A DNA stretch of 64,000 nucleotides from Hyphomonadaceae bacterium (GTDB lineage Bacteria > Pseudomonadota > Alphaproteobacteria > Caulobacterales > Aquidulcibacteraceae). A program made the position numbers and the translations under genes. The stretch lies in contig WRPI01000007.1 of NCBI GenBank assembly GCA_009773395.1, positions 118,326-182,325 on the forward strand, read 5' to 3'. The first letter of the stretch is position 1; each line of letters opens with the position of its first letter. Shown piece after piece: positions 1 to 17,984 of the stretch. The notes under the pieces were generated by a model that was not told the DNA's origin, ran no database searches, and was given only the letters and a program-made list of their open reading frames with translations.

Positions 1-766
1 GAAGTTTCGCGCTTTCAGTTGCCAAATCTGCATCAACCATGGAGCCAATGCCGCCAGTGATCGCATCTTGCAATTTTGACACAAAAATATTGTGGCTTTC
101 AAGCCGTTTAGAACTTGCGCCCATGCGCGAAAGCTCGGAGTTTACATATTCCAACGAAGCTACCACTCGGTCACGTGCCGTTGCCGCTAACGCTGCTGTG
201 CTTAAATCGTCTGTGGTACCCAAATAAACATCAACGGCCGGACTTGCGACCGCAGTCCCCGCACCAGTTACCAAGCGCAAATCCAAAGTTGGCAAAACGA
301 TTGTTTGAGTGCCAGTTGTATTGGCCATAAAGGTCAAATTCGCGCCGCCACCAATAACATTTGCGCCATCAAAAACCGCATTGGCAATCACTGATGCGAC
401 TTGATCGCGCAAAGCTGTGAATTCCGAATTATATGCTGCACGGCTGGTCGCTGAGATTGAAGTGTCTGACGCTGCAAGTGCTTTTTCGCGCATCTGTGTA
501 AAAATATCGGAAATTGTTTCCCCCGCCGCTAAAGCAACATCGGCAATACCTTTTGCGCGATCAAGACCAACTCTTACCGCATCATAAGCCGCATGTTCGG
601 ACCTTTGTTGCTGTGCAATATTATACACTGCGCCATTGTCGCGTGCATTTGCGACTTTAAGGCCGGTATTAATTCTGCCTTGAACGGTGTCCAACATGCG
701 AGTTGTTGCGTTGAGATTCTGTAGCGCCGACATTGCGCCCATATTGGTTTGTAAACTTGTGCCCAT
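1..766 (-). CDS. Flagellin (3' end truncated by window edge); divergent paralog
   Basis: Absent from the ORF track because it has no stop inside the window. Manual translation from ATG at 766: MGTSLQTNMGAMSALQNLNATTRMLDTVQGRINTGLKVANARDNGAVY...KLQDAITGGIGSMVDADLATESAKL, with flagellin N- and C-terminal signatures. RBS-like AGGGG upstream. Confidence 0.93.
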   Translation of the reverse strand, partial: MGTSLQTNMGAMSALQNLNATTRMLDTVQGRINTGLKVANARDNGAVYNIAQQQRSEHAAYDAVRVGLDRAKGIADVALAAGETISDIFTQMREKALAASDTSISATSRAAYNSEFTALRDQVASVIANAVFDGANVIGGGANLTFMANTTGTQTIVLPTLDLRLVTGAGTAVASPAVDVYLGTTDDLSTAALAATARDRVVASLEYVNSELSRMGASSKRLESHNIFVSKLQDAITGGIGSMVDADLATESAKL

Positions 767-844
767 TTTGTGCCCCTATTAACTTCTTAAAGCTCGTTGT
801 CGCGGCTAGTGGAATTGGTTTTCCGCGCATCGTGAATTATTAAG

Positions 845-860
845 AGCAATCGCTGTGCCA
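845..860 (-). promoter_or_regulatory. sigma54 (-24/-12) promoter of flagellin 1
   Basis: Minus strand TGGCAC-AGCGA-TTGCT matches TGGCAC-N5-TTGCW. Confidence 0.85.
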
Positions 861-904
861 ACTTGGGGCAATCGTAATTGTTTGATTTTATTATGATTTT
901 TATA

Positions 905-920
905 TTTACTTAGCAGTAAC
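905..920. promoter_or_regulatory. CtrA-box-like site, flagellin 1
   Basis: TTTA-CTTAGCA-GTAAC versus TTAA-N7-TTAAC (2 mismatches); same offset from the sigma54 site as in the other two flagellin promoters. Confidence 0.4.
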
Positions 921-934
921 CTAATTTCAAACAT

Positions 935-979
935 GGTAAATGCTGCCGCATACATGGTAAAATGGGCAATGTTTGCCCA
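935..979. promoter_or_regulatory. ftr-like (FlbD enhancer) elements, flagellin 1
   Basis: GGTAAATGCTGCCG at 935 and inverted repeat TGGGCAA-TGT-TTGCCCA at 963-979, about 90-130 bp upstream of the sigma54 site. Confidence 0.55.
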
Positions 980-994
980 GTTTCTAGGGACCTG

Positions 995-1031
995 AAAACA
1001 AAAACGCGACCGAAGTTTCCCCCGGTCGCGT
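995..1031 (-). terminator. Rho-independent terminator after flaG
   Basis: Stem ACGCGACCG/CGGTCGCGT (1004-1012/1023-1031), followed on the minus strand by a U-rich tract. Confidence 0.8.
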
Positions 1032-1061
1032 CCTATTTTTCAAAGTCATTATCTGCGCAAA

Positions 1062-1454
1062 TCATGCACTTTCATCAAGCATTAGACCCCTTGCGTCAAC
1101 ATCCTGCATTGCTGCTAATTCTGACACAATCTCCTCATGGGGCCACACTCTTGTGACTTCTCCAGTTTCTTTATTGATAGATTTGTAGATAAAGCCAGCT
1201 CCATTGGGGTTTTTTTCAATTACCAATGAAGTGTTATTGCCTGCTAATCTATCTGCCAATGCGTCCAATTTTTCTTGTTTGGGCGTATTGGATATATTGT
1301 CGGTCTTCACAGCGTCTCGCGAGTTTGATCCCGCTGATGTGTCTCTTGAAGCCTCTGGCGCCGCCTTTACTATCTGAACTTTTGGTACAGCAGCAGGTGA
1401 CACCTTGGCCAATTCGGACGGCGCGGTGAAAGAGAAATTTGGTTCTATTTTCAT
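1062..1454 (-). CDS. flaG: FlaG-family flagellar protein
   Basis: 130 aa directly downstream of a flagellin; low-complexity N-terminus and FlaG-like C-terminus (SLVIEKNPNGAGFIYKSINKETGEVTRVWPHEEIV). Confidence 0.7.
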   Translation of the reverse strand: MKIEPNFSFTAPSELAKVSPAAVPKVQIVKAAPEASRDTSAGSNSRDAVKTDNISNTPKQEKLDALADRLAGNNTSLVIEKNPNGAGFIYKSINKETGEVTRVWPHEEIVSELAAMQDVDARGLMLDESA

Positions 1455-1551
1455 CCGTTCCTGTTCAGCTTTTTGGGCTGAACCCTCCTTTGGCCCTTAA
1501 CCCGTGTTGTCATTTTGCGTGGGCTAGGTTTTAACCCACGCATATTCGCGA

Positions 1552-2376
1552 TTAACGGAACAATGACAATGCGGTTTGAGCCGATTGGTTAGCAATCGAA
1601 AGCGCTTGAACGCCCAATTGTTGTTTAACTTGAAGTGCTTGTAGTTTTGCACTTTCTTTCGACAAATCTGCATCAGTCATCGCACCGATACCAGAATTAA
1701 GAGCGTCTTGAAGCTTGCTCACAAATGCCTTGTGAACGTCAATGCGCTTTGCGCCTGCGCCCCAAGTGGCCAATTGTGTGCCGAGGTTGGTGATTGAAGA
1801 ATTTACCAAGCCCAATGCAGTTGCTGAAGTTGTAGCGTCAGTTAGAACCGAAGCAGCAGCAACAGTTACAATCGCACCGCCCAACGAAAGGTTAGCACCC
1901 GAAACAGTGATAGTGTTACCGCCAGCTGAATCACCCAATGCCAGTGCGTTGGCAGGCGAAGCACCGACCATATTTGCACCATCAAATGAAGCGTTAGCAA
2001 TGATTGAAGTTACTTGGTCACGCATTTGTGCAAAGTCAGCAGCCAAAGCAGCTTGAGCCGAAGCTGACAAGCCAGCTTGCGAGCCAGCCAAAGCTTTGCC
2101 CTTCATTTCGTTCAACAATTCCATGATGGATTCGCCAGCAGCAATTGCAGTGTCAACCAAAGCAGAAGCACGTTCGGCTGATTCACCAACGCGGTCATAT
2201 GCTACGACATCTGAACGCATTTTATTGGCAATTGCCCAAATAGCGCCATTGTCTTTTGCGCTTGATACTTTTAGGCCAGTAGATACTCGATTTTGTGTAA
2301 CTTGAAGTTCACGATCGGTTTTGGTTAGAGTTTGAAGTGCAACCATTGCACCATGATTTGTGTTTACGCTGATCAT
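1552..2376 (-). CDS. Flagellin (FljK/FljM-type, 274 aa)
   Basis: SVNTN...STGLKVSSAKDNGAIWAIA and DADLSKESAKLQALQVKQQLGVQALSIANQ...LSLFR signatures. Confidence 0.97.
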   Translation of the reverse strand: MISVNTNHGAMVALQTLTKTDRELQVTQNRVSTGLKVSSAKDNGAIWAIANKMRSDVVAYDRVGESAERASALVDTAIAAGESIMELLNEMKGKALAGSQAGLSASAQAALAADFAQMRDQVTSIIANASFDGANMVGASPANALALGDSAGGNTITVSGANLSLGGAIVTVAAASVLTDATTSATALGLVNSSITNLGTQLATWGAGAKRIDVHKAFVSKLQDALNSGIGAMTDADLSKESAKLQALQVKQQLGVQALSIANQSAQTALSLFR

Positions 2377-2450
2377 ATTCTTGATCCTCTATTTTCTATG
2401 TTGAACCACATTCTTGTGGCACAGGTCATTTTTTGACCCGTTTAGTTAGT

Positions 2451-2466
2451 TGCAATCGGCGTGCCA
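2451..2466 (-). promoter_or_regulatory. sigma54 promoter of flagellin 2
   Basis: Minus strand TGGCAC-GCCGA-TTGCA, a perfect consensus match. Confidence 0.88.
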
Positions 2467-2510
2467 GTTGGCCGAAGCTAACTCCTTATGTTTATTAAGT
2501 TTTTTCTTAG

Positions 2511-2526
2511 TTACTGGCTGGTTAAC
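2511..2526. promoter_or_regulatory. CtrA-box-like site, flagellin 2
   Basis: TTAC-TGGCTGG-TTAAC, 1 mismatch to TTAA-N7-TTAAC. Confidence 0.5.
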
Positions 2527-2540
2527 GGATTTTCGGATTA

Positions 2541-2595
2541 GGCAATTCCTGCCGAGTTTGCGGAAATTTTTGCCTAGTGCTAGGCAGAAATTGGT
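2541..2595. promoter_or_regulatory. ftr-like enhancer elements, flagellin 2
   Basis: GGCAATTCCTGCCG (2541), GGAAATTTTTGCC (2562) and GGCAGAAATT (2583), spaced about 21 bp apart. Confidence 0.55.
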
Positions 2596-2630
2596 AGTGG
2601 TAGCAAAACTATCCGCCAGCTCCATCTCCA

Positions 2631-2714
2631 GTCATCCCCGATTTACCACTTGTCATCCCCGATTTATTCGGGGATCTCATGCCGCACAAGATTCTTCGAC
2701 AAGGCGGGAATGAC
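2631..2714. repeat. GTCAT-tagged palindromic repeat cluster (half unit + head-to-head doublet)
   Basis: TGTCAT-CCCCGA-TTTAT-TCGGGG-ATCTC, spacer ATGCCGCAC, then inverted degenerate unit AAGATTCTTCGACAAGGCGGGAATGAC. Confidence 0.9.
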
Positions 2715-2742
2715 TGCTCCTTTTGATTGACCAGCAAGTAAA

Positions 2743-2757
2743 GAACATATAGAGAAC
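2743..2757 (+). promoter_or_regulatory. Alphaproteobacterial LexA (SOS) box upstream of the GIY-YIG gene
   Basis: GAAC-ATATAGA-GAAC = GAAC-N7-GAAC, 25 bp upstream of the ATG and just downstream of a TTGACC -35-like hexamer (2728-2733). Confidence 0.75.
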
Positions 2758-2781
2758 ATCAATACTTTTTGGCAACTCACT

Positions 2782-3144
2782 ATGAAATTCGATTACAGCG
2801 AACATTGTTATTTTGTATATCTGATGACCAATCGGCCACGAGGAGTTTTTTATGTTGGCGTGACTAGCGATCTCATAGGAAGAATTTGGAAACATCGTTC
2901 GCATGCTTTCAGAAAATCATTTACCGACAAATACAATCTTGAACGATTAGTTTGGTATGAGCCACATGGAGACGTGACTGGTGCAATTCATCGCGAAAAG
3001 CAAATTAAGCGATGGATTAGGGATTGGAAAATAAATCTTGTAGAGATTGATAATCCAACTTGGCACGACCTATGGGGCGAGATTACGAGCAATCAGCTTT
3101 ATGTTGGGAAAGACTATTCTGACTTCGAGTTTCATTTAGAATAA
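2782..3144 (+). CDS. Small standalone GIY-YIG nuclease
   Basis: YFVYLMTN...FYVGVTSDLIGRIWKH...TDKYNLERLVWYE...AIHREKQIKRWIRDWKINLVEIDNPTWHDL; GIY-YIG-type tyrosines plus catalytic Arg and Glu are present. Confidence 0.93.
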   Translation: MKFDYSEHCYFVYLMTNRPRGVFYVGVTSDLIGRIWKHRSHAFRKSFTDKYNLERLVWYEPHGDVTGAIHREKQIKRWIRDWKINLVEIDNPTWHDLWGEITSNQLYVGKDYSDFEFHLE

Positions 3145-3147
3145 TTT

Positions 3148-3234
3148 TGTCGTCCCGCATTTGTTGCGCGATCTCAAACCCCACGAGATCCCCGAATAAA
3201 TCGGGGATGACAGTGTGGTAAATCACGGATGACA
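3148..3234. repeat. GTCAT-tagged palindromic repeat cluster (doublet + half unit)
   Basis: TGTCGTCCCGCATTTGTTGCGCGATCTC, 9-nt spacer AAACCCCAC, GAGATCCCCGAATAAATCGGGGATGACA, then GTGTGGTAAATCACGGATGACA. Confidence 0.9.
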
Positions 3235-3282
3235 TGGGGTATTGAGTCGGGGAAGACAGAGACTAAAAAACTGCCCCAAACC

Positions 3283-3314
3283 AAAAAAAAGGCCCGAAGT
3301 TTCCTTCGGGCCTT
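3283..3314 (-). terminator. Rho-independent terminator after flagellin 3
   Basis: Perfect 11-bp stem AAGGCCCGAAG/CTTCGGGCCTT with a GAAA loop on the minus strand and a long U-tract. Confidence 0.9.
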
Positions 3315-3333
3315 AGCTTTGGAGTTCAAAATA

Positions 3334-4158
3334 TTATCTGAACAATGACAATGCGGTTTGCGCTGATTGGTTAGCAATTGAAAGCGCTTGAACGCCCAAT
3401 TGTTGTTTAACTTGCAACGCTTGCAATTTAGCACTTTCTTTCGATAAATCAGCATCAGTCATTGAGCCAATCCCTGAATTAAGCGCGTCTTGCAATTTGC
3501 CTACAAAAGTTTTGTGAGCATCTAAACGCTTCGCACCAGCACCCCAGGTAGCCAATTGGGTTCCCAGATTAGTGATTGAAGCATTCACAAGACCCAAAGC
3601 GGTCGTAGCATTTGCCGCACTCGCAACGTCGGAAGCCGCAGCAACAGTAACAACTGCGCCACCCAATGAAAGGTTCACACCAGTCACTGTAATGGAGTTA
3701 CCGCCAGCAGCATCACCAAGTGACACGGCGTTGGCAACAGCAGCGCTGACCATATTTGCACCGTCAAACGAAGCATTTGCGATGATTGAAGTTACTTGGT
3801 CACGCATTTGAACGAAGTCAGCATTAAGTGCTGATTGTGCAGAAGCCGAAAGGCCCGCTTGTGACGCAGCCAAAGCTTTGCCTTTCATTTCATTAAGCAA
3901 TTCCATAATGGATTCACCCGCTGCGAGACCAGTATCAACCAAAGCGGTTGCACGTTCATTGGATTCAATAACGCGGTCATATGCCATGACGTCTGATTTC
4001 ATTTTGTTGGCAATCGCCCAGATCGCCCCATTGTCCTTTGCTGACGAAACCTTTAGGCCAGTCGATACACGGTTTTGAGTAATCGAAAGGTCACGGTCGG
4101 TTTTGGCTAAAGTTTGAAGTGCAACCATTGCACCTTGATTTGTGTTTACGCTGATCAT
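3334..4158 (-). CDS. Flagellin (274 aa), close paralog of 1552-2376
   Basis: Same signatures as flagellin 2. Start moved to ATG 4158 (MISVNTN) because GGAG lies upstream and the length then equals the paralog. Confidence 0.97.
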   Translation of the reverse strand: MISVNTNQGAMVALQTLAKTDRDLSITQNRVSTGLKVSSAKDNGAIWAIANKMKSDVMAYDRVIESNERATALVDTGLAAGESIMELLNEMKGKALAASQAGLSASAQSALNADFVQMRDQVTSIIANASFDGANMVSAAVANAVSLGDAAGGNSITVTGVNLSLGGAVVTVAAASDVASAANATTALGLVNASITNLGTQLATWGAGAKRLDAHKTFVGKLQDALNSGIGSMTDADLSKESAKLQALQVKQQLGVQALSIANQSAQTALSLFR

Positions 4159-4230
4159 TTCGTCGATCTCCATCTATTTAAGGTGGTAGTGCATTTTGCA
4201 CCACAAGCCATTTTGACTCGAGTATTTGGT

Positions 4231-4246
4231 TGCAAATGACATGCCA
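4231..4246 (-). promoter_or_regulatory. sigma54 promoter of flagellin 3
   Basis: Minus strand TGGCAT-GTCAT-TTGCA. Confidence 0.85.
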
Positions 4247-4290
4247 CTTTGATTGAACTAAGCCATTATGTTTATTAAGTATTTTCTTGG

Positions 4291-4306
4291 TTTATGCTTG
4301 GTTAAC
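4291..4306. promoter_or_regulatory. CtrA-box-like site, flagellin 3
   Basis: TTTA-TGCTTGG-TTAAC, 1 mismatch to consensus. Confidence 0.5.
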
Positions 4307-4320
4307 AAGTGTTTTTGCTA

Positions 4321-4377
4321 GGCAAGAGCGCACTAGAGATGGGCAAAAAATGCACGCTGACTCGGCAATATTTGCCG
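4321..4377. promoter_or_regulatory. ftr-like enhancer elements, flagellin 3
   Basis: GGCAAGAG (4321), GGCAAAAAATGC (4342) and perfect inverted CGGCAA-TAT-TTGCCG (4363-4377). Confidence 0.65.
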
Positions 4378-4431
4378 CAACCTTGAGTTATGTGAGTTAT
4401 TACCCGAAAGTAACCGCGGGCTAAAAAATGC

Positions 4432-4459
4432 AAAAAAGCCCGCCAAAAATGACGGGCTT
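4432..4459 (-). terminator. Rho-independent terminator after flaF
   Basis: Stem AAGCCCG/CGGGCTT followed by a U-tract on the minus strand. Confidence 0.7.
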
Positions 4460-4484
4460 GGTTATTCAAAACAGGTAATTTGGT

Positions 4485-4862
4485 TCAAAGCTGTTGCGCG
4501 GCCTGCAATTCTATTTGCCCAGCAAGGCCTTGCATAATTGAGCGATTAATATCGATCAAAGCCTCAATGTCTTCGCCGCTTTGCATGACCGTAGATGTAT
4601 ATTTGCCTACAAAAATCGACAAAGAAATAATGCTCGCGCGCAATTGATCAGGAAGGCCATTATTATCATCGGCGCAATCACCGGCCATAAAGGTCCAAAC
4701 CCGCCGATTCCAGTCGAGCGCGTCCATACGTTTGCCAATTTCAGTTTTCGGCAGCTCTGCGACGTCCATTAACGCGCGGGTTACACATGAAAATAACCGA
4801 TATTCGGTTTCACGCGGCGTTTCTACCCGCTTTTGAACTGTCTGATACGCGCTGAGACCCAT
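4485..4862 (-). CDS. flaF: Flagellar biosynthesis regulator FlaF
   Basis: [20 protein letters not shown]...ALDWNRRVW...[18 protein letters not shown]...[12 protein letters not shown]; adjacent to flbT. Confidence 0.95.
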
Positions 4863-5247
4863 TGCTTAACCTTTCGGATTCAAATTCCATCAATTTACGG
4901 CACCGCGAAAGCGCCTTGTAATATTCGCCCGACATGACGTCCCGTGAGATGGTTACACAATCTTCCAGCGCCTGGACATGGGTAACAACGCTCATGAATT
5001 CAGTCATACGAAGCGCAAACTCATTGTATATTTCGGCGGTGTCGGCACCTGCTAAATACATCATCATAACTGGGAAATAGATACGCCGCGCTGGCGTATT
5101 TGCATCCTCAGCTTGCATAATGTCTTTTTCACGCAAAACCGATGCTTTATTTTGCAGCAACATAGTTGTGCGGCGATCGCCGTTTTGAATAACGGCACCA
5201 TTGAGGACGATTTTCTCATTTGGTTTCAATGATAGCTTTAATGGCAT
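4810..5247 (-). CDS. flbT: Flagellin translational regulator FlbT
   Basis: [26 protein letters not shown]...LREKDIM...[15 protein letters not shown]...YYKAL. Confidence 0.95.
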
Positions 5248-17890: not shown

Positions 17891-17905
17891 GAACAAATCA
17901 AGAAC
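17891..17905. promoter_or_regulatory. LexA (SOS) box upstream of ruvC
   Basis: GAAC-AAATCAA-GAAC, 24 bp upstream of the ruvC start; ruv genes are typical SOS targets. Confidence 0.8.
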
Positions 17906-17919
17906 TATTTGCCTCGCAA

Positions 17920-17984
17920 TGTCATCCCGCACTTGTTGCGGGATCTCATGCCGCACGAGATCCCCGATTAAATCGGGGATGACA
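17920..17984. repeat. Solo head-to-head doublet of the GTCAT palindromic repeat
   Basis: TGTCATCCCGCACTTGTTGCGGGATCTC-ATGCCGCAC-GAGATCCCCGATTAAATCGGGGATGACA; same spacer as 2679-2687 and same two unit types as 3148-3212. Confidence 0.92.

What the first reader, a model, noticed from the sequence alone, without database searches (positions are those of the whole stretch)
2631..3233. REPtron-like element built around a GIY-YIG nuclease instead of a RAYT transposase
Seen: a 120-aa GIY-YIG gene flanked on each side by a head-to-head doublet of 28-bp GTCAT-tagged palindromes plus an outer half unit, giving ~48-bp terminal inverted repeats with a perfect 28-bp core. It sits cleanly between a terminator and the next gene's enhancer. 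A gene-free doublet with the same 9-nt spacer occurs 15 kb away. No TSD or DDE/HUH transposase is visible. Known: REP/BIME doublets are typically associated with HUH-family RAYT transposases (REPtrons). Inference: this is an analogous system in which a GIY-YIG endonuclease recognises or processes the hairpins and may drive their spread. I know of no mechanistic description of such a system, but a literature search is needed before calling it new.
Basis: partly seen in the sequence, partly recalled or inferred. Interest (0 to 1): 0.85.

Follow-up and report, generated by a model that had tools for sequence, protein, structure and literature searches.

The report
Ssn nuclease gene with hairpin repeats
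A small DNA-cutting enzyme gene bracketed by its own hairpin repeats is real, but it belongs to the Ssn nuclease and hairpin-repeat system published in 2025, so it is a new example and not a new kind of element.

Summary
A 120-aa single-domain GIY-YIG gene (2782-3144) lies between inverted GTCAT-tagged hairpin units with a perfect 28-bp core. The genome holds 75 intact units, 48 of them in 24 gene-free doublets, and no RAYT/Y1 transposase.

The system is already described. Chenal et al. 2025 (PMC11893778) showed that SsnA-type GIY-YIG nucleases bind such hairpins (NTS/SRM) as single-stranded DNA only and cut just 5' of them. They also noted the IS-like NTS-ssnA-NTS layout and the RAYT/REP analogy.

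Here the units fit the published SRM motif. Of 232 homologue loci from many phyla, 81% carry tagged hairpins next to the gene. Repeat sequence co-varies with nuclease distance.

Three points may add to the paper:
- In a near-identical strain (flanking genes dS 0.04) the cassette is a diverged allele (dS 0.81, dN/dS 0.15) and is inverted.
- A conserved alphaproteobacterial LexA box sits in the ssn promoter.
- Doublet ends stop being conserved about where SsnA cuts in Neisseria.

Whether the nuclease spreads the repeats remains unproven. I could not align the protein directly with a biochemically characterised SsnA.

The parts
2631..2649 (+). Outer half unit, left: GTCAT tag plus the 5' stem arm, then CCAC (GTCATCCCCGATTTACCAC).
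   Evidence: It pairs with 3215-3233 as a 19-nt inverted repeat at 89%. Similar 'half unit + about 21 nt + full unit' composites recur at other loci and in relatives L297 and L004.
2651..2678 (+). Full hairpin unit A, left (TGTCATCCCCGATTTATTCGGGGATCTC). This is an SRM/NTS-type unit with its tag facing outward.
   Evidence: It is a perfect 28-nt inverted repeat with 3185-3212. The ssDNA hairpin folds at -8.2 kcal/mol, z -4.2. It misses the published SRM pattern only at the last degenerate base.
2679..2687 (.). 9-nt doublet spacer ATGCCGCAC.
   Evidence: The same spacer occurs in the gene-free doublet at 17920-17984.
2688..2714 (-). Decayed inner unit of the left doublet (reverse complement GTCATTCCCGCCTTGTCGAAGAATCTT).
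   Evidence: The tag is kept but the hairpin is lost: -2.6 kcal/mol, z -0.1. The corresponding unit is intact in relative L297.
2727..2757 (+). Promoter-like TTGACC (2727-2732) and an alphaproteobacterial LexA-type box GAACATATAGAGAAC (2743-2757), which ends 24 nt before the ATG.
   Evidence: Read from the sequence. The box is invariant in the diverged alleles L297 and L301. It is one of only 15 intergenic perfect boxes in the genome. Others precede lexA (two boxes), ruvC, a uvrD-like gene and a comM-like gene (two boxes).
2782..3144 (+). ssn gene: a 120-aa single-domain GIY-YIG nuclease of the Ssn/SsnA type.
   Evidence: Pfam PF01541 E=1e-11. Invariant Y13, Y24, G26, R34, H38, E72 and N91 in an alignment with 22 homologues. 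AlphaFold model pLDDT 84.7, with residues 106-120 disordered. Nearest solved folds are GIY-YIG proteins: 1ZG2, Slx1 and UvrC. dN/dS is 0.09-0.15.
3148..3175 (+). Inner unit B of the right doublet (TGTCGTCCCGCATTTGTTGCGCGATCTC), partly decayed.
   Evidence: Weak hairpin: -4.3 kcal/mol, z -2.2. Intact B units (TGTCATCCCGCACTTGTTGCGGGATCTC) occur elsewhere in the genome.
3185..3212 (-). Full hairpin unit A, right, with its tag facing outward.
   Evidence: Perfect inverted copy of 2651-2678. It matches the published SRM search pattern (C4:121509-121537).
3215..3233 (-). Outer half unit, right 1 (reverse complement GTCATCCGTGATTTACCAC).
   Evidence: Inverted repeat with 2631-2649. It is absent from the near-identical strain L301, where the full unit abuts the flank.
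3235..3258 (-). Outer half unit, right 2 (reverse complement TGTCTTCCCCGACTCAATACCCCA).
   Evidence: Read from the sequence. It is also absent from L301.
17920..17984 (.). Gene-free doublet (unit B, spacer ATGCCGCAC, unit A inverted) with tags outward. It belongs to the same repeat family.
   Evidence: C4:136246-136308. It is one of 24 doublets in the genome. It lies 14 bp from the LexA-type box at 17891-17905, upstream of ruvC.

Best explanation
This is an Ssn/SRM locus. The gene encodes an SsnA-type, single-domain GIY-YIG endonuclease. The GTCAT-tagged palindromes around it, and 75 copies genome-wide, are its cognate recognition hairpins (Ssn-related motifs, like the Neisseria NTS).

**Mechanism, inferred from characterised homologues.** When DNA is single-stranded, the strand reading 5'-TGTCATCCC...GGGATCTC-3' folds into a hairpin. 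The nuclease binds the hairpin together with its 5' tag and hydrolyses the strand a few nucleotides 5' of the tag. Double-stranded DNA and the opposite strand are not cut. Units in a doublet, and around the gene, face outward, so each strand is cut at one outer edge.

**Regulation, inferred.** In this bacterium the gene is probably repressed by LexA and made during the SOS response, when single-stranded DNA is abundant.

**Behaviour of the cassette, shown by comparison.** The cassette between the outer units behaves as an exchangeable module. A near-identical strain carries a deeply diverged allele at the same site, in inverted orientation.
For: **Published system.** PMC11893778 describes the NTS repeat CGTCATTCCCGCGMAVGCGGGAATCYRG, a 94-aa single-domain GIY-YIG (cd10448), cleavage of ssDNA only and 5' of the hairpin, and the NTS-ssnA-NTS layout.

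**This locus.**
- GIY-YIG domain with conserved catalytic residues and a GIY-YIG fold.
- Units match the published SRM pattern: 23 hits against 3.6 in shuffled genomes.
- Hairpins are stable as ssDNA. Stems co-vary: 99.2% of cells paired, 5 pairs changed on both sides, 0 of 500 shuffles as high.
- The protein is 46% identical (E 1e-30) to a Silvimonas protein bracketed by exact Neisseria-type NTS tags.

**Across 232 homologue loci.**
- 188 have a tagged hairpin beside the gene and 118 have one on both sides. Control windows 640-950 bp away score 10-15%.
- Unit sequence co-varies with protein distance.

**Other support.**
- No RAYT in the genome.
- ssn is under purifying selection, dN/dS 0.09-0.15.
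- LexA box evidence.
- Allele swap and inversion.
Against: - I could not fetch N. meningitidis or Wolbachia SsnA, so homology to a biochemically tested enzyme is indirect.
- CDD cd10448 could not be run.
- The left full unit misses the published pattern at one degenerate base.
- 53 of the 75 units are a 36-38-nt form (39-41 nt with its flanking bases). Its loop and extended stem exceed the published pattern. Nobody has shown that one Ssn recognises both forms.
- Seventy-five units is modest beside the more than 200 in the genomes the paper highlights.
- LexA control rests on motif evidence only.
Confidence: 0.82

Rival explanations
1. Selfish mobile element. The SRM-ssn-SRM cassette is an autonomous element, the gene-free doublets are its non-autonomous derivatives, and Ssn is the mobilising nuclease. 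Nicks at the outer edge of each hairpin on ssDNA would release or mark the element, and host replication or repair would complete the copying. This builds on the best explanation and does not replace it.
For: - Distribution is patchy: 21 of 41 relatives, and 1 of 8 other genomes of the same genus. Some relatives have up to 8 copies, several with in-frame stops.
- The closest same-genus genome has the two flagellin genes adjacent with no cassette.
- The allele is replaced and inverted in a near-identical background.
- Exact NTS tags bracket cassettes of about 380 bp in many phyla.
- Conservation at doublet ends stops at position -3 from GTCAT. That is close to the Neisseria cut, which I derived as lying between -5 and -4 from the oligo lengths quoted.
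- There are 24 uniform doublets.
- The authors raise the same idea.
Against: - GIY-YIG enzymes hydrolyse DNA and form no covalent intermediate, so they cannot perform strand transfer alone (general knowledge of the superfamily).
- This genome has only one ssn copy.
- The cassette has stayed at the same flagellin site in three lineages whose flanks have diverged by up to 13%.
- There is no target-site duplication.
- No transposition event has been observed anywhere.
Confidence: 0.3
2. Domesticated host function. Ssn and the dispersed hairpins modulate recombination or processing of ssDNA, either incoming (transformation, conjugation) or endogenous (gaps at damaged forks), as shown for natural transformation in N. 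meningitidis. The repeats would persist because of that role.
For: - In Neisseria, SsnA restricts the integration of NTS-bearing transforming DNA.
- ssn here is under purifying selection.
- The gene has been retained at one locus in three lineages.
- A LexA box in the promoter is conserved across alleles and recurs in two other lineages of the order.
- One doublet sits next to the ruvC LexA box.
Against: - Seven of eight other genomes of the genus do without the gene.
- I did not examine competence or conjugation genes in this genome.
- The only tested role is in one distant species.
Confidence: 0.35
3. Classical homing endonuclease. The enzyme cuts the empty double-stranded site between the flagellin genes and is copied in by repair. 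The hairpins would be incidental.
For: - Weak PHROG hits to homing endonucleases, over the catalytic motif only (E 7e-4 and 3e-3).
- Relatives have an empty site.
Against: - The protein has no DNA-binding domain: a single domain of about 100 residues and a disordered tail.
- Characterised homologues do not cut dsDNA.
- Homologues sit in unrelated sites but always with the same tagged hairpins.
Confidence: 0.04
4. Chance neighbourhood. The palindromes are ordinary REP-like terminators or mRNA stabilisers unrelated to the nuclease gene.
For: The units are intergenic hairpins and some lie at gene ends.
Against: - The association holds in 81% of 232 loci across phyla, against 10-15% in control windows. 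Orientation is fixed and spacing is tight: medians of 29 nt to the start codon and 20.5 nt from the stop codon.
- Repeat sequence co-varies with the nuclease.
Confidence: 0.02

Closest known systems
Ssn nuclease family with NTS/SRM hairpin repeats (SsnA of Neisseria meningitidis, CDD cd10448; Chenal et al. 2025, Nat Commun 16:2388, PMC11893778)
   Same: - Small single-domain GIY-YIG protein.
- Gene bracketed by inverted hairpin units carrying a 5' GTCAT tag.
- The same units are dispersed in the genome and are mostly intergenic.
- Units fit the published SRM pattern.
- The architecture is shared by homologues across phyla.
   Different: - The protein is 120 aa, with a disordered tail of about 15 residues, against 94 aa for SsnA.
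- Most units here are an extended-stem form of 36-38 nt (39-41 nt with flanking bases) that falls outside the published pattern.
- Units are organised mainly as uniform 63-bp and 90-bp doublets.
- There is a LexA-type box in the promoter; the paper does not mention LexA.
- A cassette allele swap with inversion is seen between near-identical strains.
- Activity has not been tested for this protein.
REPtrons: RAYT (Y1 HUH transposase, IS200/IS605-related) with REP/BIME/REPIN repeats
   Same: - A single-copy enzyme gene flanked by its own hairpin repeats.
- Gene-free inverted doublets (REPIN-like) dispersed in intergenic DNA.
- Recognition of hairpins in single-stranded DNA.
   Different: - The enzyme is a hydrolytic GIY-YIG nuclease, not an HUH tyrosine transposase.
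- No Y1_Tnp gene exists in the genome.
- No covalent intermediate is possible, so any copying must rely on host functions.
UPF0213 / YhbQ-type stand-alone GIY-YIG proteins (for example BH0048, PDB 1ZG2)
   Same: The same small stand-alone GIY-YIG fold. 1ZG2 is the best structural match (Foldseek E 1e-3, 25% identity).
   Different: - No sequence-level hit to PDB or to any NCBIfam model.
- As far as I know, no repeat association has been described for that group.
MITEs and bacterial palindromic repeat families of alphaproteobacteria (RIME-type intergenic mosaic elements)
   Same: Short intergenic elements with terminal inverted repeats and hairpin potential.
   Different: Here a cognate nuclease gene carries the same ends, no DDE transposase is involved, and there is no target-site duplication.

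Membership tests
Ssn/SRM system (cd10448, Chenal 2025) | Small single-domain GIY-YIG protein with no extra DNA-binding domain. | tested here: met
   PF01541 covers residues 9-85 of 120. The model shows one GIY-YIG domain (residues 7-105) and a disordered tail. The best structural matches are GIY-YIG proteins.
Ssn/SRM system (cd10448, Chenal 2025) | Conserved GIY and YIG tyrosines and the metal-binding Glu, which the paper mutated to abolish activity. | tested here: met
   Y13, Y24, G26, R34, H38, E72 and N91 are invariant in the alignment with 22 homologues.
Ssn/SRM system (cd10448, Chenal 2025) | Gene flanked on both the 5' and 3' sides by SRM hairpin units. | tested here: met
   Full units lie at 2651-2678(+) and 3185-3212(-). 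The right unit matches the published degenerate pattern and the left misses it at one base.
Ssn/SRM system (cd10448, Chenal 2025) | The same motif is repeated and enriched in the host genome. | tested here: met
   There are 75 intact tagged hairpins. The published pattern gives 23 hits against 3.6 in dinucleotide shuffles.
Ssn/SRM system (cd10448, Chenal 2025) | Sequence homology to characterised SsnA (the paper's criterion: tblastn E below 1e-10) or assignment to cd10448. | tested here: inconclusive
   I could not retrieve Neisseria or Wolbachia SsnA, and CDD is not available. Indirect evidence: 46% identity (E 1e-30) to a Silvimonas protein flanked by exact NTS tags, and 232 homologues share the SRM architecture.
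Ssn/SRM system (cd10448, Chenal 2025) | Strand-specific cleavage of ssDNA only, just 5' of the hairpin. | not testable with these tools
   This needs purified protein and oligonucleotide substrates.
REPtron (RAYT + REP/BIME) | An HUH/Y1 tyrosine transposase (Pfam Y1_Tnp) encoded between the repeats. | tested here: not met
   The encoded protein is GIY-YIG. PF01797 has no match in the whole genome at E up to 1.
REPtron (RAYT + REP/BIME) | Flanking and dispersed hairpin repeats arranged as inverted doublets. | tested here: met
   There are 24 doublets with tags outward. This feature is analogous, not homologous.
GIY-YIG homing endonucleases (I-TevI type) | Catalytic domain linked to a separate DNA-binding domain, with dsDNA target cleavage and intron or intergenic homing. 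| tested here: not met
   There is no second domain. The only PHROG hits are weak and cover the motif region.

The most novel reading that the evidence does not exclude
The SRM-ssn-SRM cassette and its 63-bp and 90-bp doublets would form an SOS-induced, ssDNA-based mobile system whose only element-encoded protein is a hydrolytic GIY-YIG nuclease.

On this reading:
- LexA derepression turns on Ssn.
- Ssn nicks each strand at the outer edge of the hairpins.
- Host replication or repair then copies, swaps or inverts the segment between the nicks.

That would be a mobility mechanism outside the recognised transposase classes. It would also explain three observations here: the allele swap with inversion between near-identical strains, the end of sequence conservation near the inferred cut site, and the partial units stacked at the element's edges.
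Probability: 0.22. Interest if true: 0.8.

Novelty: new member of a known kind. Interest (0 to 1): 0.4.

Why it matters
Ssn nucleases were described only in 2025. Their role outside Neisseria, and whether the NTS-ssnA-NTS unit moves, are open questions that the authors themselves raise.

This locus offers three testable handles:
- A natural pair of near-identical strains in which the whole cassette, and nothing else, has been exchanged and inverted. That points to recombination at the hairpin units in vivo.
- A likely SOS (LexA) control of ssn in some alphaproteobacteria. That would tie the enzyme to conditions in which single-stranded DNA is abundant.
- Two hairpin forms (28 nt and about 39 nt) sharing one tag and one nuclease gene, which bears on how the enzyme reads its substrate.

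As a discovery of a new kind of element it does not stand, because the kind is published.

Tried and rejected
**Other transposase or nuclease in the genome.** No RAYT/Y1 transposase was found. No second small GIY-YIG gene exists; the only other match is a 639-aa ORF, UvrC-sized.

**Annotation libraries.** NCBIfam, PADLOC and PDB sequence searches gave nothing useful.

**Fetching a characterised SsnA, which failed.**
- An NTS-tag pair pattern hit only NTS clusters in Neisseria.
- Protein-seeded scans from a Silvimonas homologue and a Rickettsiales homologue returned no Neisseria or Wolbachia record.
- All four genome-contig scans are used.

**Clean empty site.** The nearest genome without the cassette is too diverged (75-79% in the flagellin genes) to align the junction base by base.

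**Fast invertible switch.** Rejected. The window's allele has the same orientation in 5 other assemblies. The P0002 allele is inverted in all 3 assemblies shown (4 contigs carry it). The P0001 allele has the window's orientation in the three longer contigs shown.

**In-place divergence of ssn by selection alone.** Rejected. Synonymous divergence is about 18-20 times that of the flanks.

**Target-site duplication at doublet ends.** None found.

- Partial substitute: the 28-nt units gave hits only in the window's own genome and in none of the 8 other genomes of the genus. The candidate list in that search was limited.
Full report
**1. What is there**

The region lies between two tandem flagellin genes on the minus strand (1552..2376 and 3334..4173). 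ORF 2782..3144(+) encodes 120 aa and matches Pfam GIY-YIG over the whole domain (E 1e-11). It matches no NCBIfam, PADLOC or PDB sequence.

It is flanked by inverted repeats. The perfect 28-bp core TGTCATCCCCGATTTATTCGGGGATCTC lies at 2651-2678 and, inverted, at 3185-3212. Outer half units lie at 2631-2649 and 3215-3233.

Each full unit is the outer member of a doublet whose inner member has decayed. The inner members are 2688-2714 on the minus strand and 3148-3175 on the plus strand. As single-stranded DNA the full units fold at -8.2 kcal/mol (z -4.2), the right inner unit folds weakly, and the left inner unit does not fold. The flagellin terminator at 3289-3314(-) bounds the right side.

**2. 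The repeat family in this genome**

The window is C4:118326-182325 of a 2.63-Mb genome that is 99.9% complete.

- GTCATCCC-tagged hairpins occur 75 times. Twenty-one are a short form (25 nt between the GTC and ATC ends, 28 nt with flanking bases) with two stem types, CCCCGA/TCGGGG and CCCGCA/TGCGGG. Fifty-three are a long form of 36-38 nt with an extended stem.
- Forty-eight units form 24 doublets with tags facing outward: 18 long-long of 90-92 bp, 5 short-short of 63-83 bp and 1 mixed. Twenty-seven units are solo.
- The stems co-vary. In 26 distinct long units, 99.2% of cells pair, 5 pairs change on both sides, and no shuffle of 500 reaches the observed covariation.
- The bases upstream of GTCAT are conserved as A(-3) T(-2) T(-1) and not further out. 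There is no target-site duplication.
- The genome has no Y1/HUH (RAYT) gene. Its only other GIY-YIG match is a 639-aa ORF, UvrC-sized.

**3. It is a known system**

A full-text search found Chenal et al. 2025 (PMC11893778). The paper reports the following:

- SsnA of N. meningitidis is a 94-aa single-domain GIY-YIG protein (CDD cd10448).
- It binds the repeat CGTCATTCCCGCGMAVGCGGGAATCYRG (NTS) only as single-stranded DNA and only on one strand.
- It cuts just upstream of the repeat.
- 71% of homologues have such a motif (SRM) nearby and 42% have one on both sides.
- The NTS-ssnA-NTS layout resembles an insertion sequence, and the authors compare it with RAYT/REP/BIME.

From the oligo lengths quoted, I derive the Neisseria cut as lying 3 nt upstream of the 28-nt NTS.

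The unit here differs from the NTS mainly in the stem. The published degenerate SRM pattern matches 23 sites in this genome against 3.6 in dinucleotide shuffles, including the right full unit. The left full unit misses at one degenerate base.

**4.

*Do homologues carry flanking repeats?*
- Among relatives of the same order, the loci examined (L004-L011) show inverted tagged hairpins beside the gene in most cases.
- In 80 loci from named genomes of many phyla, 54 have an SRM-like unit within 300 bp and 29 have the full 'plus unit upstream, minus unit downstream' layout.
- With my own hairpin finder on 232 loci, 188 have a tagged hairpin beside the gene and 118 have one on both sides. Control windows 640-950 bp away score 10-15%. 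Median spacing is 29 nt from the unit to the start codon and 20.5 nt from the stop codon to the unit.

*Does the repeat co-vary with the nuclease?*
- Yes. Mantel r is 0.33 and 0 of 999 permutations reach it. Unit distance rises steadily with protein distance. Within a locus the two units are 88% identical, against 67% between loci. Linkage alone could produce part of this.

*Is there another transposase?*
- No.

*Are there empty sites?*
- The closest genome of the genus (G007) has the flagellin genes adjacent with no cassette, but it is too diverged for a base-exact junction.

*Distribution.*
- The gene is patchy: 21 of 41 relatives, and 1 of 8 other genomes of the genus. Some relatives have up to 8 copies, and several copies carry in-frame stops.

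**5. Membership**

- The protein has the invariant GIY-YIG residues Y13, Y24, G26, R34, H38, E72 and N91.
- The model is confident for residues 7-105, with a disordered tail.
- Its best structural matches are GIY-YIG proteins: 1ZG2, Slx1 and UvrC. No Ssn structure is in the PDB copy.
- I could not retrieve a biochemically characterised SsnA for direct alignment.
- Indirect evidence is strong. Exact Neisseria NTS tags 341-401 bp apart bracket small cassettes in more than 120 places across phyla. One of these, in Silvimonas terrae, encodes a 100-aa protein that is 46% identical to this one (E 1e-30).

**6. What may add to the paper**

*(a) Cassette exchange.*
- The nearest homologues (78% aa identity) lie in the same flagellin spacer in metagenome contigs.
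- In contig L301 (Hainich groundwater) the two flanking flagellin genes are 98.8-98.9% identical in DNA to the window (dS 0.040 and 0.046). The outer intergenic flanks are 94% identical.
- The ssn gene in L301 is only 81% identical (dS 0.81, dN/dS 0.15), and the whole cassette is inverted relative to the flanks. The same full unit A sits at both junctions.
- Synonymous divergence about 18-20 times that of the flanks means an old allele was swapped in at the hairpin units. It did not diverge in place.
- Orientation is fixed for each allele in the assemblies shown that carry flanking genes, so this is not a fast switch.
- A third lineage (L297; flank dS 0.35-0.60) keeps the cassette at the same site, with ssn dS 1.7.

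*(b) SOS control.*
- GAACATATAGAGAAC at 2743-2757 overlaps the promoter-like region and ends 24 nt before the ATG.
- The genome has only 53 such motifs, 15 of them intergenic. Reading the translations, these include two boxes before lexA, one before ruvC, one before a uvrD-like helicase and two before a comM-like gene.
- The box is invariant in all three alleles although the leader is only 66-85% identical.
- Perfect boxes also sit about 10-25 nt before the start of ssn homologues in two other families of the order.
- Overall, 5 of 232 loci have a box within 100 nt of the start, against 0.47 expected.
- The paper does not mention LexA.

*(c) Edges.*
- Conservation at doublet ends stops at -3, near the Neisseria cut, which I infer to lie between -5 and -4.
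- The window carries two extra partial units at its right edge that the near-identical strain lacks.
- Partial units stacked 5' of full units recur elsewhere.

**7. Verdict**

The locus is a new member of the Ssn/SRM system.

The step from 'nuclease that cuts its hairpins' to 'nuclease that spreads them' remains a hypothesis. The cassette exchange and the pattern at the edges make it more testable but do not prove it.

Two checks could therefore not be run: unit counts against ssn presence in relatives, and read-level evidence for coexisting orientations.

Noticed in passing
window 2743-2757: A perfect alphaproteobacterial LexA-type box (GAAC-N7-GAAC) lies in the ssn promoter. It is invariant in two diverged alleles and recurs before ssn homologues in two other families of the order. 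Other intergenic boxes in the genome precede lexA, ruvC, a uvrD-like gene and a comM-like gene.
   Followed up: partly
L301 2850-3440 versus window 2631-3258: A near-identical strain (flanking flagellin genes 98.8-98.9% identical, dS 0.04) carries a deeply diverged ssn allele (dS 0.81) in inverted orientation at the same site. The same full hairpin unit sits at both junctions.
   Followed up: yes
genome contigs C10:72613, C10:129885(-), C15:164160(-), C6:162276(-), C15:10461, C1:14490 (outside the window): Six loci share 'half unit + full short unit + GTGCCGCAAAAGA' followed by about 130 nt of related sequence (motifs such as CCATATCAAACCATATCA and ATGTTAGTAAATG). Different small ORFs follow on the opposite strand, and one locus adjoins RHS/YD-repeat genes. 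There is no second hairpin end. Unexplained.
   Followed up: partly
genome contigs C6:182551, C10:19748, C10:183615, C15:23035 (outside the window): In several long doublets one unit is interrupted right after GTCATCCCCGAATTTTCGA by the same insert (CTTGTCCAGCGTAGCCC.AAGGGCGA...). This suggests a second small element nested in the hairpin.
   Followed up: no
window 17891-17984: The gene-free doublet lies 14 bp from a LexA-type box upstream of a ruvC-like gene (C4:135680-136192, minus strand).
   Followed up: partly
loci L119-L198: The exact 13-nt Neisseria NTS tags CGTCATTCCCGCG / CGCGGGAATGACG, 341-401 bp apart, occur in more than 120 places. The taxa include Dehalococcoidia, Binatia, Pirellulales, Rikenellaceae, Xanthomonadales and Sphingomonadales. 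This degree of conservation fits horizontal spread of the cassette.
   Followed up: partly
genome contig C16:36281 and C16:37996 (outside the window): Two 38-nt units of a rare subtype (loop GCAACGC) lie 1.7 kb apart in the same orientation. I did not examine what lies between them.
   Followed up: no
window 2-5247: A flagellar gene cluster on the minus strand holds three flagellin paralogues (one running off the window start), a FlaG-like gene between the first two, then FlaF and FlbT. The ssn cassette sits between the second and third flagellin genes, next to the terminator of the third.
   Followed up: partly
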